Shown here: positions 2,022-57,256 of the stretch, piece after piece
Numbering within the stretch: position 1 is the first letter of the stretch
Layout: each line of letters opens with the position of its first letter
Notes under the pieces: model-generated
Told to the model about the DNA's origin: nothing
What the model saw: the letters and a program-made list of their open reading frames with translations, nothing else
The model's database searches: none
Origin: Escherichia phage ECML-10
DNA: 64,000 nucleotides
Reading direction: 5' to 3' (one strand)
Sequence record: OL631479.1
Made by a program: the position numbers and the translations under genes

Positions 2022-2576
2022 TTACTCCCCGCTGTCAATAGCAAGACTCATTGCAATACGGTATGCCTCTTCTAATGGTAAGAGTCTCCCCCACACATCC
2101 CAACCGACATCAAGCTGCCTGCCAAACAACTGTTGTGTGGTTCCGTGAGCATGACCGAACAGTTGGACTGATCCATGAGGCTTTCTGTTCCACTTTGCAA
2201 ACTGGTAATGGCTCATACAGATCAAATTCTTGTTGTGGCGAAGCTCGTAATAATCTACAACCTCGTGATAGAACTCTTTCATAATTCTGACAGTCGTCCT
2301 TGTGTCATGGTTGCCACGAACAAGAATAATATGTCCGTTCAACATATTTAGAATATCCGGGAGTAAGTTGTTGATATTCTTATCATTAGTGCACGCAATA
2401 TCTCCCAAGTGGAACACAGTGTCTGCAGGTGACACAACAGAGTTCCACTCGGCGATGATTCCTGCATTCATACTGTCAAGATTGTGATCATACTGAGATC
2501 TGTGTTTTTGACATGAATCAAACTCCATGACCCGCTGGTGGAGAAAGTGTGTGTCGCTTGTTACAAAGTATTTCAT
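2022..2576 (-). CDS. calcineurin-like metallophosphoesterase (protein/polynucleotide phosphatase)
   Basis: Start moved to internal ATG (MKYFVTSDTHF); motifs DxH, GDIACTNDKN, GNHD, GHAH typical of the family. Confidence 0.75.
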   Translation of the reverse strand: MKYFVTSDTHFLHQRVMEFDSCQKHRSQYDHNLDSMNAGIIAEWNSVVSPADTVFHLGDIACTNDKNINNLLPDILNMLNGHIILVRGNHDTRTTVRIMKEFYHEVVDYYELRHNKNLICMSHYQFAKWNRKPHGSVQLFGHAHGTTQQLFGRQLDVGWDVWGRLLPLEEAYRIAMSLAIDSGE

Positions 2577-2583
2577 ACATTCC

Positions 2584-2994
2584 TCATTTAAGTTTAATGC
2601 AGTTTTTAAGCTGGCGTTCCATACGATCCACAACCCTGTCTGGAACATCATGAATGCTTTTATTACCGTGGCGGTTTTCAACCACGATCACGGTATAACT
2701 ATACCCATGACTGATTGCCATGTCAATATATTCTTGCACATGTTTTTCTTTTGTAAACGTATTACTTACCACGATACGGTCGTATCCCATACGCATCATA
2801 TCTTCTACGTTATCTTTGCACCATTTTGCTGCAAGTGTTACTTTACTTGCATCCCAGTTGTAATTTCCGTCATCGTCGTACCAGAACATGTCGTTCTCAA
2901 AATGTGGATACAGACCTTCTAAAGATAGAGCATTTGCCAGTGTTGATTTGCCAGACCCTGGTATACCACGCACGATATATAGCATTTTAGACAT
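2584..2994 (-). CDS. polynucleotide kinase-like P-loop kinase (T4 Pnkp kinase-domain homolog)
   Basis: Start moved to ATG 2994 (SD GGGGGA); P-loop GIPGSGKST, RIVVSNT and HDVPDRVV align with T4 Pnkp N-terminal kinase domain. Confidence 0.65.
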   Translation of the reverse strand: MSKMLYIVRGIPGSGKSTLANALSLEGLYPHFENDMFWYDDDGNYNWDASKVTLAAKWCKDNVEDMMRMGYDRIVVSNTFTKEKHVQEYIDMAISHGYSYTVIVVENRHGNKSIHDVPDRVVDRMERQLKNCIKLK

Positions 2995-3112
2995 AGCAAT
3001 CCCCCGTTTTAATTTTAATGATAGTATACCTAACTGTTTTGTTAATTTCAAGTGTTGACACTAGGTTGTTTGTGTGGCAGGATAGACTGACAAAATGACA
3101 AATGAGGAACGT

Positions 3113-4030
3113 ATGATGAAGTATTTTAATGCAGACGATCTAGTTGACAAAGGTCTTGTAACCAGTCGATATTATCCAGATCTTGGATTAAAGATCTATA
3201 AATATGCCAGAAAAGTATTCTACAACAATCTGTGGCATTTGTCCCCTCGTTTGCTGGAGTGCCGAGGCATTGTTGTCGGTAATGAAGGAAATGTTGTGGC
3301 ATGGCCCTTCACAAAAGTGTTTAACTTGGGAGAAAATCACACCAACCTGCCTGACAATAAGCTTGTGACGGCGGTAGAGAAAAAGAACGGATTCCTCGGC
3401 GTGGTGTCATCTCATAAAGGTGAACTATTGTTCTCAACAACCGGATCTCTTGATTCCCCATATTGTAACCTCGCAAAGGAAACCATCCGGGAGCAATGTG
3501 GTAATTTAGATCTTATCAAGAAGGTTATGGGCAATGAAAACATGACATTCATGTTTGAAATTTGTCACCCTTCAGATCCGCATATTGTTCAGGAAGATCA
3601 TGGCGCATATTTGATAGGTTGCAGATATAATGATTCTGGAATAATGCTGCCAGAAGCAGCTTTAGATGGGATTGCCAAATACCTTGGCGCAAAACGTCCT
3701 CACACTGTGCGTGAAATTCCGTTCAGCTATGCAAAAGAATTGGCTGCAGAAACAAGAGGTGAAGGGTATATGATTCGTAAGCCTTACTACCCTTATGATC
3801 TGCAGCTGAAGATCAAGTCTCCATACTATCTGGCACGGAAGGCCGTAATGAGGGGTAAAGCTTGGAAGATTTGGGATGATGATATCTTTAAACGTGTTGA
3901 CGAAGAGTTTTACGGCATGGTAAACTTCATTCGTAGCAATTACACAGAAGATGTGTGGAACTGCCTACTGGAGCAGGAACGCAGGGAGATACTCGACCAC
4001 TATTTCCACAACGAGGACTATATGCAATGA
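3113..4030 (+). CDS. RNA ligase, Rnl1 (T4 RnlA) type
   Basis: ECRGI, FNLGEN, KxNG (EKKNGFLG) lysine motif, EGYMIRK and LKIK match T4 Rnl1 motifs; start set to ATG 3113 (SD GAGGAA). Confidence 0.8.
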   Translation: MMKYFNADDLVDKGLVTSRYYPDLGLKIYKYARKVFYNNLWHLSPRLLECRGIVVGNEGNVVAWPFTKVFNLGENHTNLPDNKLVTAVEKKNGFLGVVSSHKGELLFSTTGSLDSPYCNLAKETIREQCGNLDLIKKVMGNENMTFMFEICHPSDPHIVQEDHGAYLIGCRYNDSGIMLPEAALDGIAKYLGAKRPHTVREIPFSYAKELAAETRGEGYMIRKPYYPYDLQLKIKSPYYLARKAVMRGKAWKIWDDDIFKRVDEEFYGMVNFIRSNYTEDVWNCLLEQERREILDHYFHNEDYMQ

Positions 4031-4377
4031 AGAAGTTGATTGTGTGGCTGGATGATTTGAGAGATCCGTCAAATTATGGACTCCCAGACGCTGTTTGGCT
4101 GAAGAATTCCTCCGAGTTTATGGATTTTATTAACGATAAGGGAAAGCTCTACAGACGCGTTTCTGAGTGGCATATGGACAACGACTTAGGAGAAGTATTC
4201 GAAGGATATGATTGCCTATCCATGTTGGAGGAAAAATTTGTATTCGGTAAGCCTCCAGTGGTTGACAACGTGAAGATTTTCGTACATACTTCTAATCCAT
4301 CAGCGGCTCGTAAATTCATGCTTGCAGCTGACTCGTTTAAAAAGTTTGGAATAGAGATTAAACAAAACATCTACTGA
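4027..4377 (+). CDS. hypothetical protein (117 aa)
   Basis: ATGA start/stop overlap with RNA ligase; WLDDLRDP, HMDNDLG and HTSNP conserved-looking motifs, family not recognised. Confidence 0.55.
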   Translation: MKKLIVWLDDLRDPSNYGLPDAVWLKNSSEFMDFINDKGKLYRRVSEWHMDNDLGEVFEGYDCLSMLEEKFVFGKPPVVDNVKIFVHTSNPSAARKFMLAADSFKKFGIEIKQNIY

Positions 4378-4385
4378 GGACACTT

Positions 4386-5147
4386 ATGCGACGACTGATT
4401 ATTATCTCCGGTGCTGGTTTGAGCGCTGAATCTGGTATTCCCACTTTCCGATCTGGTAGCACTGCAATGTGGGAGAATTTCAGCATCGATGAGGTGTGCA
4501 ACATCCACACCTTTGCCAAGAACTACTATAAGGTGCATGACTTTTACAATGCACGTCGTGTAGCTCTGGGCAGTGTTGATCCTAACCTTGCACATCTTCG
4601 GATCGCTGAGTGGTATTCCCGCTGGTCTGGTCGTGTGATCAACCTTACCACCAATGTAGATGATTTGCTGGAGCGTGCTGGTGTAAAACATGAAGATATT
4701 TTACATGTCCACGGGTATTTGCCTGAAATCACCTACGAAGATGCTGAAGGTAATGATGTAATTAAAAATATCGGATACACGGAGGTAGATACAGGTAAGT
4801 ATACCTGGGTTAAGCCCAATGTAGTGTTCTTCGGTGAGGTTGCTCCTAAGTATACAGACATGTATGACCTGTTGACATCTCTCACAAGCAATGATATGGT
4901 GATCCTGGTAGGTTGTTCTAACACAGTTATTAATTTTAACTGGGAATTGTTTCCTGCTACTTGTAAAGGCACAAAACTGCTGATTGTAAACAAGTATGAT
5001 TCGCAGAGTGCAGATGGAAGTGGCATTTCACGTAGCGACCTTTATCAATATGAGGATCGCGGGATCCCTGTATGGTTTAACGGTGCTGTTGACGCTTTCT
5101 CTGATAAAGTATTTATTGAAACTGTAGAAAACTTTATGGAACTTTAA
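4386..5147 (+). CDS. SIR2-family NAD-dependent deacylase/ADP-ribosyltransferase
   Basis: Sirtuin signature GAGLSAESGIPTFRSG near N-terminus and HVHG catalytic His motif. Confidence 0.75.
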   Translation: MRRLIIISGAGLSAESGIPTFRSGSTAMWENFSIDEVCNIHTFAKNYYKVHDFYNARRVALGSVDPNLAHLRIAEWYSRWSGRVINLTTNVDDLLERAGVKHEDILHVHGYLPEITYEDAEGNDVIKNIGYTEVDTGKYTWVKPNVVFFGEVAPKYTDMYDLLTSLTSNDMVILVGCSNTVINFNWELFPATCKGTKLLIVNKYDSQSADGSGISRSDLYQYEDRGIPVWFNGAVDAFSDKVFIETVENFMEL

Positions 5148-5160
5148 AAGGAGACCTTTA

Positions 5161-5874
5161 ATGCTGAATACTAAACTGATCGACAACCTGGAAAAACTGT
5201 CTCAGCCTGAAAACTACCTTTGGTCTGCCAACTGGGTGGAAAACTGGAACCGTGTGGCAGCTAAGGTGAAAAAATCATACACACCATTCGAATTACAGCT
5301 TAGCTTCATTGAGGAAGAGTTCAATGAAGTTTTGGAAGAGCTGGAGAAAGGTGATGGTGGAGATCACTTGCTAAAAGAGGCCTGCGATCTTCATGTTGTC
5401 ACAAGTTATGCCGCTTATCTTGTTAATGACAATCACGAAAAGTGGTCAAACCTGTTTGATAATCCACGAGGTATTAAGTTCAAGATTGGTGAGTTCTATG
5501 ATACACTGATCGCTGCGAAAAACACCTCTAAGCAAAGAGCGTCTGCTTACCGCTTAGCAGAGTTGTCAACAGCTTTGCTGTTCCAGCTTCGCGGTGATGT
5601 GTGCGGGATGATGCGTAAGGTTCTCAAATCGAATGACAGCAAGTTTGCACGGGTCAACCATCTACGGTATTCACACGGTGCCAGTGCAGATATGCCTGCT
5701 GAACAACTCATCGAGTTGGAGATTAAAGATCTTGAGCGACGCTTTGATGGTCGATATGAAGGTTTTGTTGCCAAGGAAGAATTCTACAACGGTAATAAAG
5801 TTATCATATTCCTTGACAGTAAAGGTAAGATCATGAAGCCTTCAAGCTTCAAGGATGTAACAGAGTATATTTAA
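5161..5874 (+). CDS. hypothetical protein; possible MazG-like NTP pyrophosphohydrolase N-domain
   Basis: ORF track; SD AAGGAG; EEEFNEVLEELEKGDGGD resembles the MazG/HisE EExxE..D motif (tentative). Confidence 0.5.
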   Translation: MLNTKLIDNLEKLSQPENYLWSANWVENWNRVAAKVKKSYTPFELQLSFIEEEFNEVLEELEKGDGGDHLLKEACDLHVVTSYAAYLVNDNHEKWSNLFDNPRGIKFKIGEFYDTLIAAKNTSKQRASAYRLAELSTALLFQLRGDVCGMMRKVLKSNDSKFARVNHLRYSHGASADMPAEQLIELEIKDLERRFDGRYEGFVAKEEFYNGNKVIIFLDSKGKIMKPSSFKDVTEYI

Positions 5875-5880
5875 CAACAT

Positions 5881-5906
5881 AGCCGGGTGATCCCGGCTTT
5901 ACTTGT
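5881..5906 (+). terminator. rho-independent terminator
   Basis: Hairpin AGCCGGG-TGAT-CCCGGCT followed by TTACTTGTTG, just after stop at 5874. Confidence 0.5.
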
Positions 5907-6246: not shown

Positions 6247-6502
6247 TCTTGCTAAACCTGTAGAAGCCCACCAGTTTGACGGAAGCTCTTCATCAGTATC
6301 TGATCTGCAACGGTGGATTGATACAGGTGTGTTTACATCGTCACCTGTTCGGACCAGAGATCTTCGTCGCATGTGTGAGCTTGTCGAGCCTTTTGGTAAC
6401 CTTGTCTTGTACCAGGGAGATTGGCTAGTTGACTTTATGGGAGACTGGTTGGTAATGAGTAAAGAAGAGATGTTTAAAATTTTTAAGGAAGAGGCCGAGT
6501 AA
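6233..6502 (+). CDS. hypothetical protein (89 aa)
   Basis: ORF track; SD AAGGAGGA before ATG 6233. Confidence 0.5.
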   Translation: MPLFNLAKPVEAHQFDGSSSSVSDLQRWIDTGVFTSSPVRTRDLRRMCELVEPFGNLVLYQGDWLVDFMGDWLVMSKEEMFKIFKEEAE

Positions 6503-7785
6503 TGCATCAAATCAAAACAACACTGTACGCACTGAACAAAGATGGCAGCTACCAACAGTGGAAAGTATTCACTGATGGCGAAAAGGTTATCGTAGAGTTT
6601 GGCAAGCTTGACGGTAAATTGCAGTACAAAGAGACGGTATGCACACCTAAGAACGTAGGTCGTGCCAATGAGACTACAGCTGAGCAACAGGCCGAGCTTG
6701 AGGCTATCAGCAAGTGGGAAAAACAAGTCCGTCTGGGGTATGTTGAAAACATGGAAGATTGCGAGCAGGGTGTTGATCTTTTACCCATGCTGGTGCATGA
6801 CTACCTGAAGCGTGGCAAGGCACTTAAATTACCTTGCTGGATCTTGCGTAAGTTAGATGGCCTTCGTCTGCTTGTTGTTTTCCAAAATGGTGAGCCTAAA
6901 TTTATTTCCCGTGGTAATAAGTCCTATCCTATTCAAGGAAAGCTTTTAGAGCAACTTCGTTCTTTCCATTCTACCACTGGGATTAAACAACTTGATGGGG
7001 AACTATACATTCATGGTCTTCCTTTGCAGAAAATAGTGTCTCTTGCTAAACGGTGGCGCACACAGGAAGAGATTCAGGCCGAGATCGATAAAGACTATGA
7101 GGCAGATAAAAAACGCCGTCATGCCGCAATTAAGGCAGGCTTATCAACATACAAAAACTTCAACAAGGTAGATATTCCTGTCGATGTTGAGCCTGTTCGT
7201 GATGATTTGCGTTACGGTGGGTACTGTAGCTACGATCTTGAGTATCACATTTTTGATATTCCTAGCGACAAGGTGTGGTGGGATCCAGAAACAGAGTCTG
7301 GACGCTGCAAGGATCTTATGGATGCAGAGGATACCGTTACCACTCTGATGCTTGACCATATCAAGGTTGTTGACGCAGAGCTTGCGTACACAGTTGATCA
7401 TTGCGAAGAATCTGTTGGTATATTCATGTCCGAAGGATATGAAGGTACCATTATGCGTAACTTCTGTGGTAAATATGAGTATGGTCAGCGAACATCTGAA
7501 GCATTGAAATGGAAAAAGTTCAACGACGCAGAGGTGAAAGTTATTGACGTTGAGAAAGATAAGAATGATGAAGGTGTTCTTATCTGTGTTGACAAGGAAG
7601 GTGTTGTTGTTAAAATGAAGATGAAAGGCACGCACGAGGAGCGTAGCTATGACAGGATGCAGAAAATGATCGGCAAGTTTGTCACCTTCAAATATCAAGC
7701 AAGGACAGAAGACAACAACTACCAATTCCCTGTCGGTATCTGCGTCCGAAATGTTAACCCAGACACTTGGGAGGTTCTGGAATGA
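6502..7785 (+). CDS. ATP-dependent DNA ligase
   Basis: Motif I KLDGLR, motif IV EGTIMRN, motif V KWKKF, and C-terminal GKFVTFKY...FPVGICVR like Chlorella-virus/T7 ligases. Confidence 0.8.
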   Translation: MHQIKTTLYALNKDGSYQQWKVFTDGEKVIVEFGKLDGKLQYKETVCTPKNVGRANETTAEQQAELEAISKWEKQVRLGYVENMEDCEQGVDLLPMLVHDYLKRGKALKLPCWILRKLDGLRLLVVFQNGEPKFISRGNKSYPIQGKLLEQLRSFHSTTGIKQLDGELYIHGLPLQKIVSLAKRWRTQEEIQAEIDKDYEADKKRRHAAIKAGLSTYKNFNKVDIPVDVEPVRDDLRYGGYCSYDLEYHIFDIPSDKVWWDPETESGRCKDLMDAEDTVTTLMLDHIKVVDAELAYTVDHCEESVGIFMSEGYEGTIMRNFCGKYEYGQRTSEALKWKKFNDAEVKVIDVEKDKNDEGVLICVDKEGVVVKMKMKGTHEERSYDRMQKMIGKFVTFKYQARTEDNNYQFPVGICVRNVNPDTWEVLE

Positions 7786-15930: not shown

Positions 15931-16544
15931 TGGATATTATTGTTCTTAACGCCCCACCCAGCAGTGGTAAGGATCACATTGCAGATCTCTTGTTGGAAGC
16001 TATTCCTAACTCACACCACCGTGAGGTTAAGGAGATGCTCTTCAGTGTGGCAATTAAGGCAGCTGGTGTAACTCCTCAACTCTGGAATGCACTTTATGAC
16101 CGCCACTACAAAGAAGAGCCTTGCCCTTTCTTAATGATAGACGGCAAGCATGTTTCTCCGCGAGAATGGATGATCCATTGTAGTGAAAATCTGATTAAAC
16201 CTATCTTTGGTGAAGATGCTTTCGGTAAAGCCGCAGTCGCATCTTTGAAGAAAGATTTCCCTAAAGGTAAAGGGGTTGTTGTTTACTCCGATGGTGGATT
16301 CAAAGAGGAGCTGGCATGCCTTAGCGAGTACGCGTACAGCACAGGTGGAGATCTGTTGTTGTTCCGTATTCACCGTGTCGGATATGACTGGGGAAATGAT
16401 TCCAGAACCTATCTAAGTCTGGAAAAGAACGGAATAAAAGGAATTGAGTTCGATGTTGTAAACCCTGAAGGTGCACCTTGGGAATGTGCATCGGAGATTG
16501 TGTGCAAGTATATTGATGCTAAAGAGGCCCAAGAAGAATGTTAA
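15930..16544 (+). CDS. dNMP kinase-like P-loop protein
   Basis: NAPPSSGKDHIADLL resembles T4 gp1 dNMP kinase P-loop; ATGA overlap with upstream gene. Confidence 0.45.
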   Translation: MDIIVLNAPPSSGKDHIADLLLEAIPNSHHREVKEMLFSVAIKAAGVTPQLWNALYDRHYKEEPCPFLMIDGKHVSPREWMIHCSENLIKPIFGEDAFGKAAVASLKKDFPKGKGVVVYSDGGFKEELACLSEYAYSTGGDLLLFRIHRVGYDWGNDSRTYLSLEKNGIKGIEFDVVNPEGAPWECASEIVCKYIDAKEAQEEC

Positions 16545-17131
16545 TCGGTATTGATGTAGATTTGACACTGGTAGATTCAGGAACAGCATGGTGGGAGTGG
16601 TTGGAGCGTTTATATGGTCCAGCCAGTAAGACAGTCACTAAACCTTCTAATGGGTTAATGTATTACGATCTGTCAAAGTATTGGCCTGATCGCCCCAAAG
16701 AAAACATCATAGGGCCTTTTGATTTCTGGAGTGACCCGTTCCTCTACGACTTTCTTAAGCCTGAAGAGGGGGCTATTGAGGTTATGAAAGATTTGGTGGC
16801 TCGTGGTCACAAGCTTGCATTTATCTCGGTATGCAAGAAAGGTCACCTTGCATCTAAATCAAGGTTCTTAAAGCGTTGGACTAGTGATTTTATGGATCTG
16901 GACGATCACACCCAGGGTCACGGCTTCTACGCCACGCATTTCAAGGGAAATGTGGCTGTAGATGTTATAATTGACGACAGGCATGAATACCTGAACCAAT
17001 TCGCTTCACGCCCTGAAGTTATTAAAATCCTAAAAGATACGCCTTATGAGCAATTTGAGGAGTTAAAGGTTAGTGTTGACTATACCGCTAATAGCTGGTA
17101 TAAAATAGGAAAGTTTTTAGAAGGTATTTGA
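16538..17131 (+). CDS. HAD-family 5'-deoxyribonucleotidase-like phosphatase
   Basis: HAD motif I IGIDVDLTLVD; KLAFISV motif-II-like; C-terminal DDRHEYL. Confidence 0.6.
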   Translation: MLIGIDVDLTLVDSGTAWWEWLERLYGPASKTVTKPSNGLMYYDLSKYWPDRPKENIIGPFDFWSDPFLYDFLKPEEGAIEVMKDLVARGHKLAFISVCKKGHLASKSRFLKRWTSDFMDLDDHTQGHGFYATHFKGNVAVDVIIDDRHEYLNQFASRPEVIKILKDTPYEQFEELKVSVDYTANSWYKIGKFLEGI

Positions 17132-56797: not shown

Positions 56798-57256
56798 TCA
56801 ACACTTTTTGTACTCCACCACGATAATATTCATATCAAAAGTGGCAAGGTTAATAACGTCCTCTACGTGCTCCCACTTCAAACCGCCTATGCCGCACCCG
56901 ATCTTAGGGATGTAGAATGGTAAAGTCGATCCACTGAATACCTCATTGACTAGCTCAAAGCCTTTCAGGATTGAGAAATATTCAGCATTAGGCCCTGGGT
57001 AGAACTGAGTATACAGATTGATTCCGTAGACAATACCTCTCGGAGATAAGTGCTCCCATCGGGAGAACGCACCCAGTTTACTTAGGCAACCATATCTAGT
57101 CTCTTTGTCAGCTGCCAATGCTTGAGGGAACTCACGGGAAATCTGTTTTGCTATCCCCTTGCCCATTGTGTGGAAGCAGTTACAACCGTGGATCAGGTGA
57201 CCAGCACCGCTCTTAAAAAGGGAGATTAAATCTCCCTCTACAGTATCAATAATCAC
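56798..57256 (-). CDS. macro-domain protein (ADP-ribose binding/processing)
   Basis: EGDL, HLIHGCNCFHTMGKGIAKQI and PKIGCGIGGL match macro-domain motifs; start set to GTG 57256 (SD AGAGGAG). Confidence 0.6.
   Translation of the reverse strand: MIIDTVEGDLISLFKSGAGHLIHGCNCFHTMGKGIAKQISREFPQALAADKETRYGCLSKLGAFSRWEHLSPRGIVYGINLYTQFYPGPNAEYFSILKGFELVNEVFSGSTLPFYIPKIGCGIGGLKWEHVEDVINLATFDMNIIVVEYKKC

What the first reader, a model, noticed from the sequence alone, without database searches (positions are those of the whole stretch)
4386..5147. SIR2-family enzyme encoded next to the RNA-repair genes
The clear sirtuin signature GAGLSAESGIPTFRSG and HVHG motif indicate an NAD-consuming SIR2 fold. SIR2 domains are best known in bacterial anti-phage defence (NAD depletion); a phage copy could be a counter-defence, an NAD salvage enzyme or an RNA/protein ADP-ribosylation eraser. 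A macro-domain gene (56798-57256), which in other systems processes the ADP-ribose products of sirtuins, sits elsewhere in the window.
Basis: partly seen in the sequence, partly recalled or inferred. Interest (0 to 1): 0.6.

Follow-up and report, generated by a model that had tools for sequence, protein, structure and literature searches.

The report
Zinc-less phage sirtuin in RNA-repair operon
This is a real, catalytically intact sirtuin gene in an rV5-like coliphage, sitting inside its RNA-repair operon; both the gene and this gene arrangement are already published, but nobody has yet tested what the enzyme does.

Summary
The ORF at 4386-5147 (+) is real and encodes a 253-aa sirtuin (Pfam SIR2, E=7e-28). 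The window is a Vequintavirus (rV5-like) genome in which public records already annotate the gene as Sir2/CobB.

It is a classical class-III-type sirtuin, closest to E. coli CobB and SIRT5. It is not a defence-type SIR2: it has no PADLOC hit. Every CobB catalytic and NAD-binding residue is kept, including the YxxR anion pocket. The zinc-ribbon cysteines are gone, Q129 is T, and A76 is an invariant Cys.

It is the third gene of a tightly coupled operon, Rnl1-cREC-Sir2-MazG-like, which ends in a hairpin terminator. A polynucleotide-kinase-like ATPase and a metallophosphoesterase are transcribed divergently.

Related sirtuins sit beside RNA end-healing or sealing genes in several unrelated phage groups. 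Exactly this neighbourhood, naming phage V5, was described by Iyer et al. 2022 (PMC9503650), who predicted a KptA/Tpt1-like RNA 2'-phosphate removal. The zinc loss was noted in 2016 (PMC5107563). I found no biochemistry.

My added caveats: the clade is acidic (pI about 5), and most carriers (T5-like phages) lack Rnl1 and cREC. The macro gene is unlinked.

Verdict: already known, with the function still open.

The parts
4386..5147 (+). Sirtuin gene (253 aa): zinc-less and class-III-like. GAGxS is at residues 9-13, FR at 21-22, Cys38 is clade-invariant, the YxxR residues are Y54/R57, TTNVDD is at 88-93, the catalytic His is H109, and FGE is at 149-151.
3095..4030 (+). Rnl1-family (T4 RnlA-like) RNA ligase and first gene of the operon. 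Its stop codon overlaps the cREC start codon (ATGA at 4027-4030).
   Evidence: Pfam RNA_lig_T4_1 E=6.9e-15; PHROG 562 E=2.7e-66; junction read
4027..4377 (+). cREC (cyclic-phosphate processing receiver) domain protein, 116 aa, with the conserved DD and DND acidic motifs.
   Evidence: Pfam cREC_REC E=1.6e-14; alignment A2; start as annotated in phage Murica
5161..5874 (+). MazG-like nucleotide pyrophosphohydrolase and last gene of the operon. It starts 13 nt after the sirtuin stop and has its own Shine-Dalgarno sequence, AAGGAG.
   Evidence: PHROG 671 E=5.4e-22; only a sub-threshold Pfam PRA-PH hit; junction read
5881..5898 (.). GC-rich hairpin (7 pairs, 6 of them G-C) with T-rich tails on both strands. 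It is a terminator-like site that closes the Rnl1-cREC-Sir2-MazG unit.
   Evidence: a terminator is annotated at the equivalent site in phage Murica
2584..2994 (-). P-loop polynucleotide-kinase-like ATPase, transcribed divergently from the operon.
   Evidence: Pfam AAA_33 E=8e-10; PHROG 2071 and PHROG 505 'polynucleotide kinase'; start as annotated in Murica
2022..2576 (-). Calcineurin-like metallophosphoesterase, downstream of the kinase on the minus strand.
   Evidence: Pfam Metallophos E=1.1e-6; PHROG 547 E=2.1e-52
56798..57256 (-). Macro-domain protein.

Best explanation
The gene encodes a catalytically competent, zinc-less, class-III-type sirtuin. I think it supplies the NAD+-consuming step of the phage's RNA-repair module.

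Proposed mechanism (the prediction of Iyer et al. 2022, which I adopt as the leading specific model):
1. [quoted passage not shown]
2. cREC and/or the metallophosphoesterase open the cyclic phosphate, and the P-loop kinase phosphorylates the 5'-OH.
3. Rnl1 seals the break.
4. The sirtuin removes a residual RNA 2'-phosphate in the manner of Tpt1/KptA. The phosphate oxygen attacks C1'' of NAD+ and nicotinamide leaves. [quoted passage not shown]
5. cREC, the metallophosphoesterase and the MazG-like enzyme degrade that by-product.

Shown here: the fold, the intact NAD and catalytic residues, the operon structure, and the recurrent linkage to RNA-repair genes. Inferred: the substrate and every chemical step.

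I put about 0.5 on 'functionally tied to RNA repair or ADPr clean-up' and about 0.35 on the specific Tpt1-like chemistry.
For: (1) The gene is translationally packed between cREC and the MazG-like gene, in a four-gene unit that ends in a hairpin.

(2) The linkage survives rearrangement. Mydovirus-type phages at about 55% identity have MPE-Rnl1-cREC-kinase-SIR2-DNA ligase, with MazG further downstream, all on one strand.

(3) Other phage groups place clade members beside other RNA-repair genes. Pfam verified these calls.
- In Tequintavirus the sirtuin gene overlaps a HAD_SAK_2 gene by 20 nt.
- A T4-like contig has RlaP-SIR2-NADAR.
- Two jumbo contigs have a T4-type Rnl1 1.2-1.7 kb upstream.
- A marine phage has HAD_SAK_2 2.2 kb downstream.
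- Overall, 17 of 38 sirtuin lineages have such a gene within 10 kb.

(4) F21, N90, D92 and H109 are all invariant, which fits two-step sirtuin chemistry. The Y54/R57 anion-binding pair is also invariant.

(5) No KptA homologue was found in the window or in any sirtuin locus. Phage KptA occurs in other groups: Erwinia, Dickeya and Klebsiella jumbo phages and clostridial phages.

(6) The same inference was published independently for phage V5 (PMC9503650, section 3.7.3).
Against: - No sirtuin is known to act on RNA phosphate, so there is no precedent.
- The protein and its whole clade are acidic (query pI 4.9, net charge -12; clade median pI 5.1). That resembles the CobB core (pI 5.4) and not KptA (pI 9.4).
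- Comparing the invariant K/R columns with the CobB alignment by eye, only K197 looks like a clade-specific basic residue, so there is no sign of an RNA-binding surface.
- The sirtuin is more widespread (975 phage records) than Rnl1 (759) or cREC (347). Salmonella phages show it best: 287 records have the sirtuin and only 14 have Rnl1. Without a Trl1-type ligase in those phages, no 2'-phosphate junction would form.
- In phi92/Phapecoctavirus-type phages the cREC-MPE-(Rnl1-kinase) block lacks the sirtuin, which sits about 30 kb away. Two of those lineages lack Rnl1 and kinase in the block.
- The metallophosphoesterase plus kinase plus Rnl1 already make up a complete T4-style heal-and-seal set.
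- The E. coli host already has KptA.
- HAD_SAK and RlaP are themselves 'RNA repair' only by contextual prediction.
Confidence: 0.35

Rival explanations
1. It is a conventional NAD+-dependent protein lysine deacylase of the CobB/SIRT5 type (deacetylase, desuccinylase or lipoamidase). It would remodel host or phage proteins during infection, for example by reactivating acetylated translation or metabolic enzymes, as proposed for Acs in Vibrio phages. On this reading, its position among RNA-repair genes reflects a shared 'keep translation running' or nucleotide-metabolism module, and the neighbouring phosphoesterases would clear O-acyl-ADP-ribose and ADP-ribose.
For: - The best sequence and fold matches are E. 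coli CobB and SIRT5 (E about 1e-21; TM 0.75-0.83).
- Every CobB catalytic and acyl-pocket residue maps across: F60/F21, Y92/Y54, R95/R57, N130/N90, D132/D92, H147/H109, V187/V146 and the FGE motif.
- The pI is acidic, like the CobB core.
- HMM scores fall off gradually from the phage clade into zinc-containing relatives, one of which is cellular.
- To my knowledge (not checked here), every biochemically tested class III sirtuin is a protein deacylase.
- The deacetylase reading is published for a Vibrio phage, where the gene is expressed at 20 min after infection (PMC5107563).
Against: - It does not explain why unrelated phage lineages repeatedly place the gene directly beside RNA end-healing or sealing genes, in some cases with overlapping reading frames.
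- No acyltransferase partner is present.
- The clade has specific changes in substrate-facing elements: loss of the zinc ribbon, CobB P221 replaced by N183, A76 replaced by Cys38, and Q129 replaced by T89.
- All NCBIfam CobB models score far below their cut-offs (122.6 vs 243 bits and 104 vs 320 bits).
Confidence: 0.27
2. It has an RNA-linked function but a different chemistry. Options include ADP-ribosyl capping or processing of RNA 5'- or 3'-phosphate ends, deacylation of an acylated RNA species such as N-acetyl-aminoacyl-tRNA made by GNAT toxins, or deacylation of the active-site lysine of the neighbouring RNA or DNA ligase.
For: The same neighbourhood evidence applies as for the best explanation. 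In Mydovirus-type loci the gene lies directly between the kinase and the ATP-dependent DNA ligase. This reading is compatible with carriage in phages that lack Rnl1.
Against: This is purely inferential, and no sequence feature distinguishes these options. The acidic surface argues against direct RNA binding.
Confidence: 0.15
3. It is a counter-defence or NAD/ADPr-metabolite enzyme. The sirtuin, together with cREC, the MazG-like enzyme, the metallophosphoesterase or NADAR, would consume or convert NAD-derived molecules, such as immune signals or toxic ADPr derivatives. It would not act on RNA or protein.
For: NAD- and ADPr-processing genes recur beside clade members. NADAR lies next to the sirtuin in a T4-like contig and a jumbo contig. 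A NadR-like NMN adenylyltransferase/kinase gene overlaps it in a marine phage. A bacterial chromosomal copy sits next to a metallophosphoesterase. cREC is also predicted to process cyclic ADPr-phosphates (PMC9503650).
Against: A sirtuin depletes NAD, which would aggravate NAD-depletion defences. Strict retention of the catalytic His and the acyl/anion pocket points to a defined acceptor substrate and away from plain NAD hydrolysis. No experimental link exists.
Confidence: 0.12
4. It is a defence-type SIR2 NADase effector (like ThsA, DSR, SIR2-HerA or SPARSA) that the phage carries for superinfection exclusion.
For: Only the shared SIR2 superfamily fold supports this.
Against: There are no PADLOC hits. 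The protein matches Pfam SIR2 across the full profile, and its top structural matches are CobB and SIRT5. It is a single-domain 253-aa protein with no sensor domain. No HerA, pAgo, TIR or SLOG partner was seen among the neighbours.
Confidence: 0.03

Closest known systems
The 'distinct clade of phage sirtuins' in predicted NAD+-utilising RNA-repair systems (Iyer, Burroughs, Anantharaman & Aravind, Viruses 2022, PMC9503650, section 3.7.3, neighbourhood type 2, prototyped by Escherichia phage V5 and Proteus phage Mydo)
   Same: It is the same gene in the same phage group. The neighbourhood is identical: T4-like RNA ligase, cREC, nucleotide kinase, MazG-family pyrophosphatase and calcineurin-like phosphoesterase. 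I reproduced it here independently.
   Different: Nothing differs structurally. I add the residue-level map to CobB, the acidic pI, the wider distribution than Rnl1 and cREC, and the unlinked arrangement in phi92/Phapecoctavirus-type phages. These points temper the published prediction.
E. coli CobB and human SIRT5 (class III sirtuins; PDB 1s5p, 6rxj, 3riy)
   Same: The fold matches (TM 0.75-0.83). The NAD-binding motifs, catalytic His/Asn/Asp, FGE loop and YxxR anion-recognition pair are all shared.
   Different: Identity to CobB is only about 32%. The zinc-ribbon cysteines are missing. TQNID has become TTNVD. CobB A76 (I recall this is SIRT5 A86, an acyl-pocket residue) is an invariant Cys. 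CobB P221 is Asn. Scores against NCBIfam CobB equivalog models fall far below their cut-offs. The gene is phage-borne and embedded in an RNA-repair operon.
Tpt1/KptA RNA 2'-phosphotransferase (ART fold)
   Same: The proposed function is analogous: an oxygen nucleophile attacks NAD+ C1'' with loss of nicotinamide, then the ADP-ribose 2''-OH attacks. The genomic association with RNA ligase, kinase and cyclic phosphodiesterase is the same. The phage distributions look complementary.
   Different: The fold is unrelated (Rossmann sirtuin vs ART). The protein is acidic and KptA is basic. The activity is entirely untested.
Sir2/CobB of Vibrio schizoT4-like phages phiSt2, phiGrn1 and KVP40 (Skliros et al. 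2016, PMC5107563)
   Same: It belongs to the same phage sirtuin family. Related copies turned up in ~250-kb Vibrio phage records at about 41-50% identity. The absence of the zinc ligand was already noted there, and T5 was listed as a carrier.
   Different: Those authors proposed deacetylation of host Acs in the context of phage NAD+ synthesis genes, and the neighbourhood there differs.
Macro-linked class M sirtuins (SirTM) and defence SIR2 effectors (ThsA, DSR1/2, SIR2-HerA, SPARSA)
   Same: They share the SIR2 superfamily fold and the use of NAD+.
   Different: There is no adjacent macro, HerA, pAgo, TIR or SLOG partner. There are no PADLOC hits. The protein keeps the full deacylase-type catalytic set and the class III pocket.

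Membership tests
Sirtuin / SIR2 family (Pfam PF02146) | Significant full-length match to the family profile | tested here: met
   E=7e-28, 98.2 bits against a cut-off of 24, covering profile positions 1-178 of 180
Sirtuin / SIR2 family (Pfam PF02146) | NAD-binding Rossmann motifs (GAGxS, SGIPxFR) and the catalytic His plus the Asn/Asp of the (T)QNxD motif | tested here: met
   G9, A10, G11, S16, G17, F21, R22, N90, D92, H109 and G110 are invariant in 34 clade members and align to CobB G48-G50, F60, N130, D132 and H147
Sirtuin / SIR2 family (Pfam PF02146) | Sirtuin three-dimensional fold (Rossmann domain plus small domain) | tested here: met
   AlphaFold model with pLDDT 89 and pTM 0.88. Foldseek top hits are CobB, SIRT5, Sir2Af and SIRT2, with probability 1.0 and TM up to 0.83
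Sirtuin / SIR2 family (Pfam PF02146) | Cys-coordinated structural zinc ribbon in the small domain | tested here: not met
   There are no Cys residues between HG(110) and KPNV(143). CobB C155, C174 and C177 align to Y117, a gap and a gap. The ribbon length is kept, and more distant relatives retain 4 Cys. The loss was already reported for phage Sir2
Class III sirtuins (CobB/SIRT5) | YxxR pair that recognises negatively charged acyl groups | tested here: met
   The FYNARR motif: Y54 and R57 are invariant and align to CobB Y92 and R95
Class III sirtuins (CobB/SIRT5) | Closest characterised relatives belong to class III | tested here: met
   The best PDB sequence hits are CobB (3.3e-21) and SIRT5 (6.5e-21), ahead of Sir2Tm and SIRT2 (about 1e-12 to 1e-13)
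Class III sirtuins (CobB/SIRT5) | Equivalog-level match to curated CobB models | tested here: not met
   NF001753 scores 122.6 bits against a cut-off of 243. NF040867 scores 104 against 320. All seven models are below their cut-offs
Class III sirtuins (CobB/SIRT5) | NAD+-dependent lysine deacylase activity | not testable with these tools
   This needs an enzyme assay. No published biochemistry was found
Defence-type SIR2 NADases (ThsA, DSR, SIR2-HerA, SPARSA) | Match to models of defence-system SIR2 proteins | tested here: not met
   No PADLOC family at E<=0.01
Defence-type SIR2 NADases (ThsA, DSR, SIR2-HerA, SPARSA) | Fused or adjacent sensor or partner (SLOG, TIR, HerA, pAgo, or a large C-terminal sensor domain) | tested here: not met
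   The protein is a single-domain 253-aa protein. Its neighbours are Rnl1, cREC, MazG-like, kinase and MPE
Macro-linked sirtuins (SirTM-type two-gene systems) | Operonic macro-domain partner | tested here: not met
   The only macro gene is 52 kb away on the other strand. In the census, one lineage had a macro gene within 10 kb
Phage RNA-repair-associated sirtuin clade (Iyer et al. 2022) | Conserved neighbourhood with RNA ligase, cREC, kinase, MazG and phosphoesterase (type 2), or HAD_SAK (type 3) | tested here: met
   The window and Mydovirus-type loci show type 2. T5-like loci show HAD_SAK_2 adjacent or overlapping
Phage RNA-repair-associated sirtuin clade (Iyer et al. 2022) | Sequence membership of a phage-dominated clade distinct from cellular CobB | tested here: met
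   The top 120 homologues (46-93% identity) look phage-borne, judging from source names and contig sizes of about 100-155 kb. The clade signature is TTNVDD, no zinc, EVC and KPNVVFFGE. The boundary is gradual, and one bacterial chromosomal member exists
Functional analogue of Tpt1/KptA | [quoted passage not shown] | not testable with these tools
   This is a contextual prediction only. Indirect evidence is mixed: KptA is absent from the sirtuin loci, but the protein is acidic and most carriers lack Rnl1

The most novel reading that the evidence does not exclude
The phage sirtuin is a true RNA 2'-phosphotransferase, or another enzyme that acts on RNA phosphate or RNA acyl groups. That would make it the first sirtuin-fold enzyme with a nucleic-acid substrate and a convergent replacement of the ART-fold Tpt1/KptA. 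[quoted passage not shown]
Probability: 0.3. Interest if true: 0.8.

Novelty: already known. Interest (0 to 1): 0.33.

Why it matters
If the published prediction is right, sirtuin chemistry extends from protein acyl-lysines to RNA phosphates. Phage RNA repair would then include a fungal/plant-style 2'-phosphate pathway built from unrelated folds, and that would be a notable biochemical result.

If the enzyme is instead a plain deacylase, it shows that many large coliphages and Salmonella, Klebsiella and Vibrio phages (975 records) reshape the host's acyl-proteome.

Either way, the gene is widespread, it sits in therapeutically used phage groups (rV5-like and T5-like), and I found no experimental test of it. 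As a genome-scan finding, though, it adds nothing beyond existing annotation and the 2022 analysis.

Tried and rejected
- PADLOC scan of the sirtuin, cREC and the MazG-like protein: no hits. The defence-type reading was rejected.
- Longer family members (up to 528 aa), checked for informative domain fusions: only SIR2, plus one WG repeat.
- PDB sequence searches for Rnl1, the MazG-like protein and the kinase: no hits. I therefore could not classify the ligase as T4-type or Trl1-type (2'-phosphate-requiring).
- Model coordinates are not exposed to scripts, so I could not compute electrostatics around the active-site cleft. I used global pI and conserved basic residues instead.
- BLASTP of the DUF7275/DUF7277 neighbour against RlaP: no similarity.
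- The 'HAD-like' gene in the window (16538-17131): it is an NT5C-type nucleotidase and not HAD_SAK.
- The cREC-centred search for KptA-for-sirtuin displacement reached only the same phage supergroup, giving 12 loci. That test stays inconclusive.
- The NARP3 paper's 'phage Sir2' is part of the phrase 'anti-phage Sir2-HerA' and is irrelevant.
- Sigma-70 promoter scan: no convincing promoter in the 100-bp divergent intergenic region.
Full report
**Observation**

The ORF at 4386-5147 on the + strand is real: 253 aa, from ATG to TAA. GAGLSAESGIPTFRSG is residues 9-24 and HVHG is residues 107-110.

The protein matches Pfam SIR2 (PF02146) over essentially the whole profile (E=7e-28, 98 bits against a cut-off of 24). 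It also matches PHROG 2162 'Sir2 (NAD-dependent deacetylase)' at E=1.6e-108.

The window is 95-99% identical to Vequintavirus (rV5-like) coliphages such as JES2013, Murica and FFH2. In those records the gene is already annotated as Sir2, CobB or NAD-dependent deacetylase.

**Anatomy of the locus**

The + strand carries four genes:
- an Rnl1-family RNA ligase (3095-4030);
- a cREC 'cyclic-phosphate processing receiver' protein (4027-4377);
- the sirtuin (4386-5147);
- a MazG-like pyrophosphohydrolase (5161-5874).

The gene junctions are tight:
- The ligase stop codon and the cREC start codon overlap (ATGA at 4027-4030).
- The cREC stop codon lies inside the GAGGA Shine-Dalgarno sequence, 8 nt before the sirtuin ATG.
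- The MazG-like gene starts 13 nt after the sirtuin stop.

A GC-rich hairpin at 5881-5898 closes the unit. It coincides with a terminator annotated in Murica.

Two genes are transcribed divergently: a P-loop polynucleotide-kinase-like ATPase (2584-2994, minus strand) and a calcineurin-like metallophosphoesterase (2022-2576, minus strand). An ATP-dependent DNA ligase follows at 6502-7785.

**What kind of SIR2 it is**

It is a classical sirtuin and not a defence-type SIR2.
- None of the 5027 PADLOC models hit it.
- The best solved relatives by sequence are E. coli CobB (1s5p, E=3.3e-21) and SIRT5, both class III. Sir2Tm and SIRT2 follow at about 1e-12 to 1e-13.
- An AlphaFold model built on 34 homologues is confident (pLDDT 89, pTM 0.88).
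- Its top Foldseek hits in the PDB are CobB, Sir2Af and SIRT5 (probability 1.0, TM up to 0.83).

I fetched E. coli CobB and aligned it to the phage protein. Every functional residue maps across:

| CobB | Phage protein |
|---|---|
| G48-A49-G50 | G9-A10-G11 |
| F60 | F21 |
| Y92 and R95 (the class III YxxR pair) | Y54 and R57 |
| N130 and D132 | N90 and D92 |
| H147 (catalytic) | H109 |
| V187 | V146 |
| F190-G191-E192 | F149-G150-E151 |
| N240 | N202 |

All of these except V146 and N202 are invariant in 34 clade members.

The differences from CobB are:
- the zinc-ribbon cysteines are absent (C155, C174 and C177 align to Y117, a gap and a gap);
- Q129 is T89 (TQNID has become TTNVD);
- A76 is an invariant Cys38;
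- T215 is C177;
- P221 is N183.

All seven NCBIfam CobB-type models score far below their curated cut-offs (for example 122.6 against 243 bits). The protein is therefore not a CobB equivalog.

**Family structure**

The word-indexed search found 949 homologues. The top 120 are 46-93% identical and look phage-borne, judging from source names and contig sizes of about 100-155 kb.

An exhaustive profile search of 1.84 billion representatives gave 157 proteins at E<=1e-30 and 7071 at E<=1e-3. I tabulated motifs across the best 150.
- The query's subclade combines TTNVDD with no cysteines in the ribbon.
- More distant relatives keep TQNxDD and a four-Cys ribbon.
- Both groups share the EVC cysteine, FYNxRR and KPNVVFFGE.

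So the zinc loss and the Q-to-T change arose within a broader family, and the boundary with cellular enzymes is gradual. One zinc-containing relative is cellular and sits next to lipoate-protein ligase. One zinc-less relative is on a bacterial chromosome next to a metallophosphoesterase.

**Neighbourhood conservation**

I collected 100 loci. I scanned all ORFs with iteratively built HMMs seeded from the window's neighbours and from partners seen elsewhere. Pfam confirmed the representative calls I checked.

Among 38 sirtuin lineages (clusters at 75% identity), 17 have an RNA end-healing or sealing gene within 10 kb. The arrangements are:
- **Mydovirus-type phages (about 55% identity):** MPE-Rnl1-cREC-kinase-SIR2-DNA ligase, with MazG further downstream, all on one strand. 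The linkage therefore survives rearrangement relative to the window.
- **T5-like loci (28 loci):** a HAD_SAK_2 'Swiss-army-knife RNA repair' phosphatase lies immediately downstream. In Tequintavirus IME178 the two genes overlap by 20 nt.
- **A T4-like contig:** RlaP-SIR2-NADAR.
- **Two jumbo-phage contigs:** a T4-type Rnl1 lies 1.2-1.7 kb upstream.
- **A marine phage:** a NadR-like NMN adenylyltransferase/kinase gene overlaps the sirtuin gene, and HAD_SAK_2 lies 2.2 kb downstream.
- **Another jumbo contig:** NADAR lies two genes upstream.

KptA was never found in the window or in any locus. Across GenBank phages, KptA occurs in 98 records. These are Erwinia, Dickeya, Klebsiella and Serratia jumbo phages, clostridial phages and Bacillus phage G. 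None of the listed rows belongs to the sirtuin-bearing groups.

**What is already published**

[quoted passage not shown] They name phage SP15 for the HAD arrangement.

They propose that the sirtuin acts like KptA to remove 2'-phosphates. The accompanying phosphoesterases would either make the 2'-phosphate or degrade the ADPr>P by-product. They also note that the gene is not coupled to a macro gene.

Skliros et al. 2016 (PMC5107563) had already noted the missing zinc site in phage Sir2 (phiSt2 and KVP40, with T5 listed as a carrier). They measured expression at 20 min after infection and proposed deacetylation of host Acs.

I found no biochemical or genetic test of any phage sirtuin.

**Evidence that tempers the KptA-like prediction**

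1. The protein is acidic (pI 4.9, net charge -12), and so is the whole clade (median pI 5.1, range 4.6-6.05). That is like the CobB catalytic core (pI 5.4) and unlike KptA (pI 9.4). Comparing the invariant K/R columns with the CobB alignment by eye, only K197 looks like a clade-specific basic residue.
2. The sirtuin is in 975 phage records, this Rnl1 in 759 and cREC in 347. Salmonella phages illustrate the mismatch: 287 records have the sirtuin and 14 have Rnl1. Most T5-like carriers therefore have no detectable phage RNA ligase that could create a 2'-phosphate junction.
3. In phi92/Phapecoctavirus-type phages of about 150 kb, the cREC-MPE-(Rnl1-kinase)-DNA ligase-MazG block persists without the sirtuin, which sits about 30 kb away next to a DUF7275/DUF7277 protein. 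In two of those lineages Rnl1 and kinase are missing from the block.
4. The metallophosphoesterase, kinase and Rnl1 already form a complete T4-style heal-and-seal set. The host also has KptA.

The most persistent partners of the sirtuin are phosphoesterases (cREC, MPE, HAD_SAK) and ADPr/NAD enzymes (NADAR, the MazG-like protein, the NadR-like protein). The ligase is a less constant partner.

**The macro gene**

The ORF at 56798-57256 is on the minus strand and is a genuine macro domain. It lies in a distant cluster of small minus-strand genes.

Its nearest solved relatives are the 5m3i/5m31 macrodomains, yeast-type ADP-ribose-1''-phosphate phosphatase (6lfu) and TARG1. From memory, and not checked here, 5m3i and 5m31 are DarG antitoxin macrodomains.

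It could be an anti-DarT factor. It could conceivably finish Appr>p breakdown. Nothing links it to the sirtuin.

**Conclusion**

I give about 0.5 to a functional tie to RNA repair or ADPr clean-up. Within that, I give about 0.35 to the published Tpt1-like chemistry as the single most likely mechanism. An ordinary protein deacylase is the main rival, at about 0.27.

The question can be settled with simple enzyme assays and a yeast tpt1 complementation test.

Noticed in passing
window 56798-57256 (-): The macro-domain protein's closest solved relatives are the 5m3i/5m31 macrodomains (DarG antitoxin macrodomains, as I recall), Poa1-type ADP-ribose-1''-phosphate phosphatase and TARG1. It sits among small minus-strand genes. 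It could be an anti-DarT counter-defence factor and have nothing to do with the sirtuin.
   Followed up: partly
GenBank records MG0656xx: About 18-25 records labelled 'Campylobacter phage' (host C. jejuni, unannotated) are 95-99% identical to E. coli rV5-like phages across this locus. The host or name assignment looks doubtful.
   Followed up: no
L009-L013, L057-L065 (phi92/Phapecoctavirus-type phages of about 150 kb): Here the sirtuin carries an insertion of about 20-25 aa after residue 44. It sits next to a DUF7275/DUF7277 protein (PHROG 2141, function unknown) and, in some loci, a C5 DNA methyltransferase. It lies about 30 kb from the cREC-MPE-Rnl1-kinase block.
   Followed up: partly
L017 6001-7888, L018 531-2418: In a marine (TARA) phage contig, the sirtuin gene overlaps a 389-aa NadR-like gene (CTP_transf_like plus CoaE/AAA_18, a predicted NMN adenylyltransferase/kinase). 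An NAD consumer is therefore translationally coupled to a predicted NAD-synthesis enzyme.
   Followed up: no
L022/L023 7001-8659: A zinc-less clade member (TSNIDD variant) lies on a bacterial chromosome between a DctPQM TRAP transporter and a metallophosphoesterase gene. The clade is therefore not strictly phage-borne, and the sirtuin-MPE pairing recurs in a cell.
   Followed up: no
window 5161-5874 (+): The MazG-like protein has no Pfam hit above threshold (PRA-PH E=0.099) and no PDB sequence relative. Only PHROG 671 supports the assignment, and residues 6-232 map to just 129 profile positions there, so the protein is probably a MazG core with large insertions.
   Followed up: no
window residue Cys38 of the sirtuin (nt 4497-4499): This cysteine is invariant across the phage clade and conserved in most of the zinc-containing relatives. 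It occupies the position of CobB A76 (I recall this is SIRT5 A86), a residue lining the acyl pocket. Its role is unexplained.
   Followed up: partly
L114, L117 (phages of about 150 kb): Two lineages keep cREC, MPE, DNA ligase and the MazG-like gene but have lost Rnl1 and the kinase from the block, and the genome still carries the sirtuin. This suggests cREC, MPE, MazG and the sirtuin can work without a phage RNA ligase. The rest of those genomes was not searched.
   Followed up: partly
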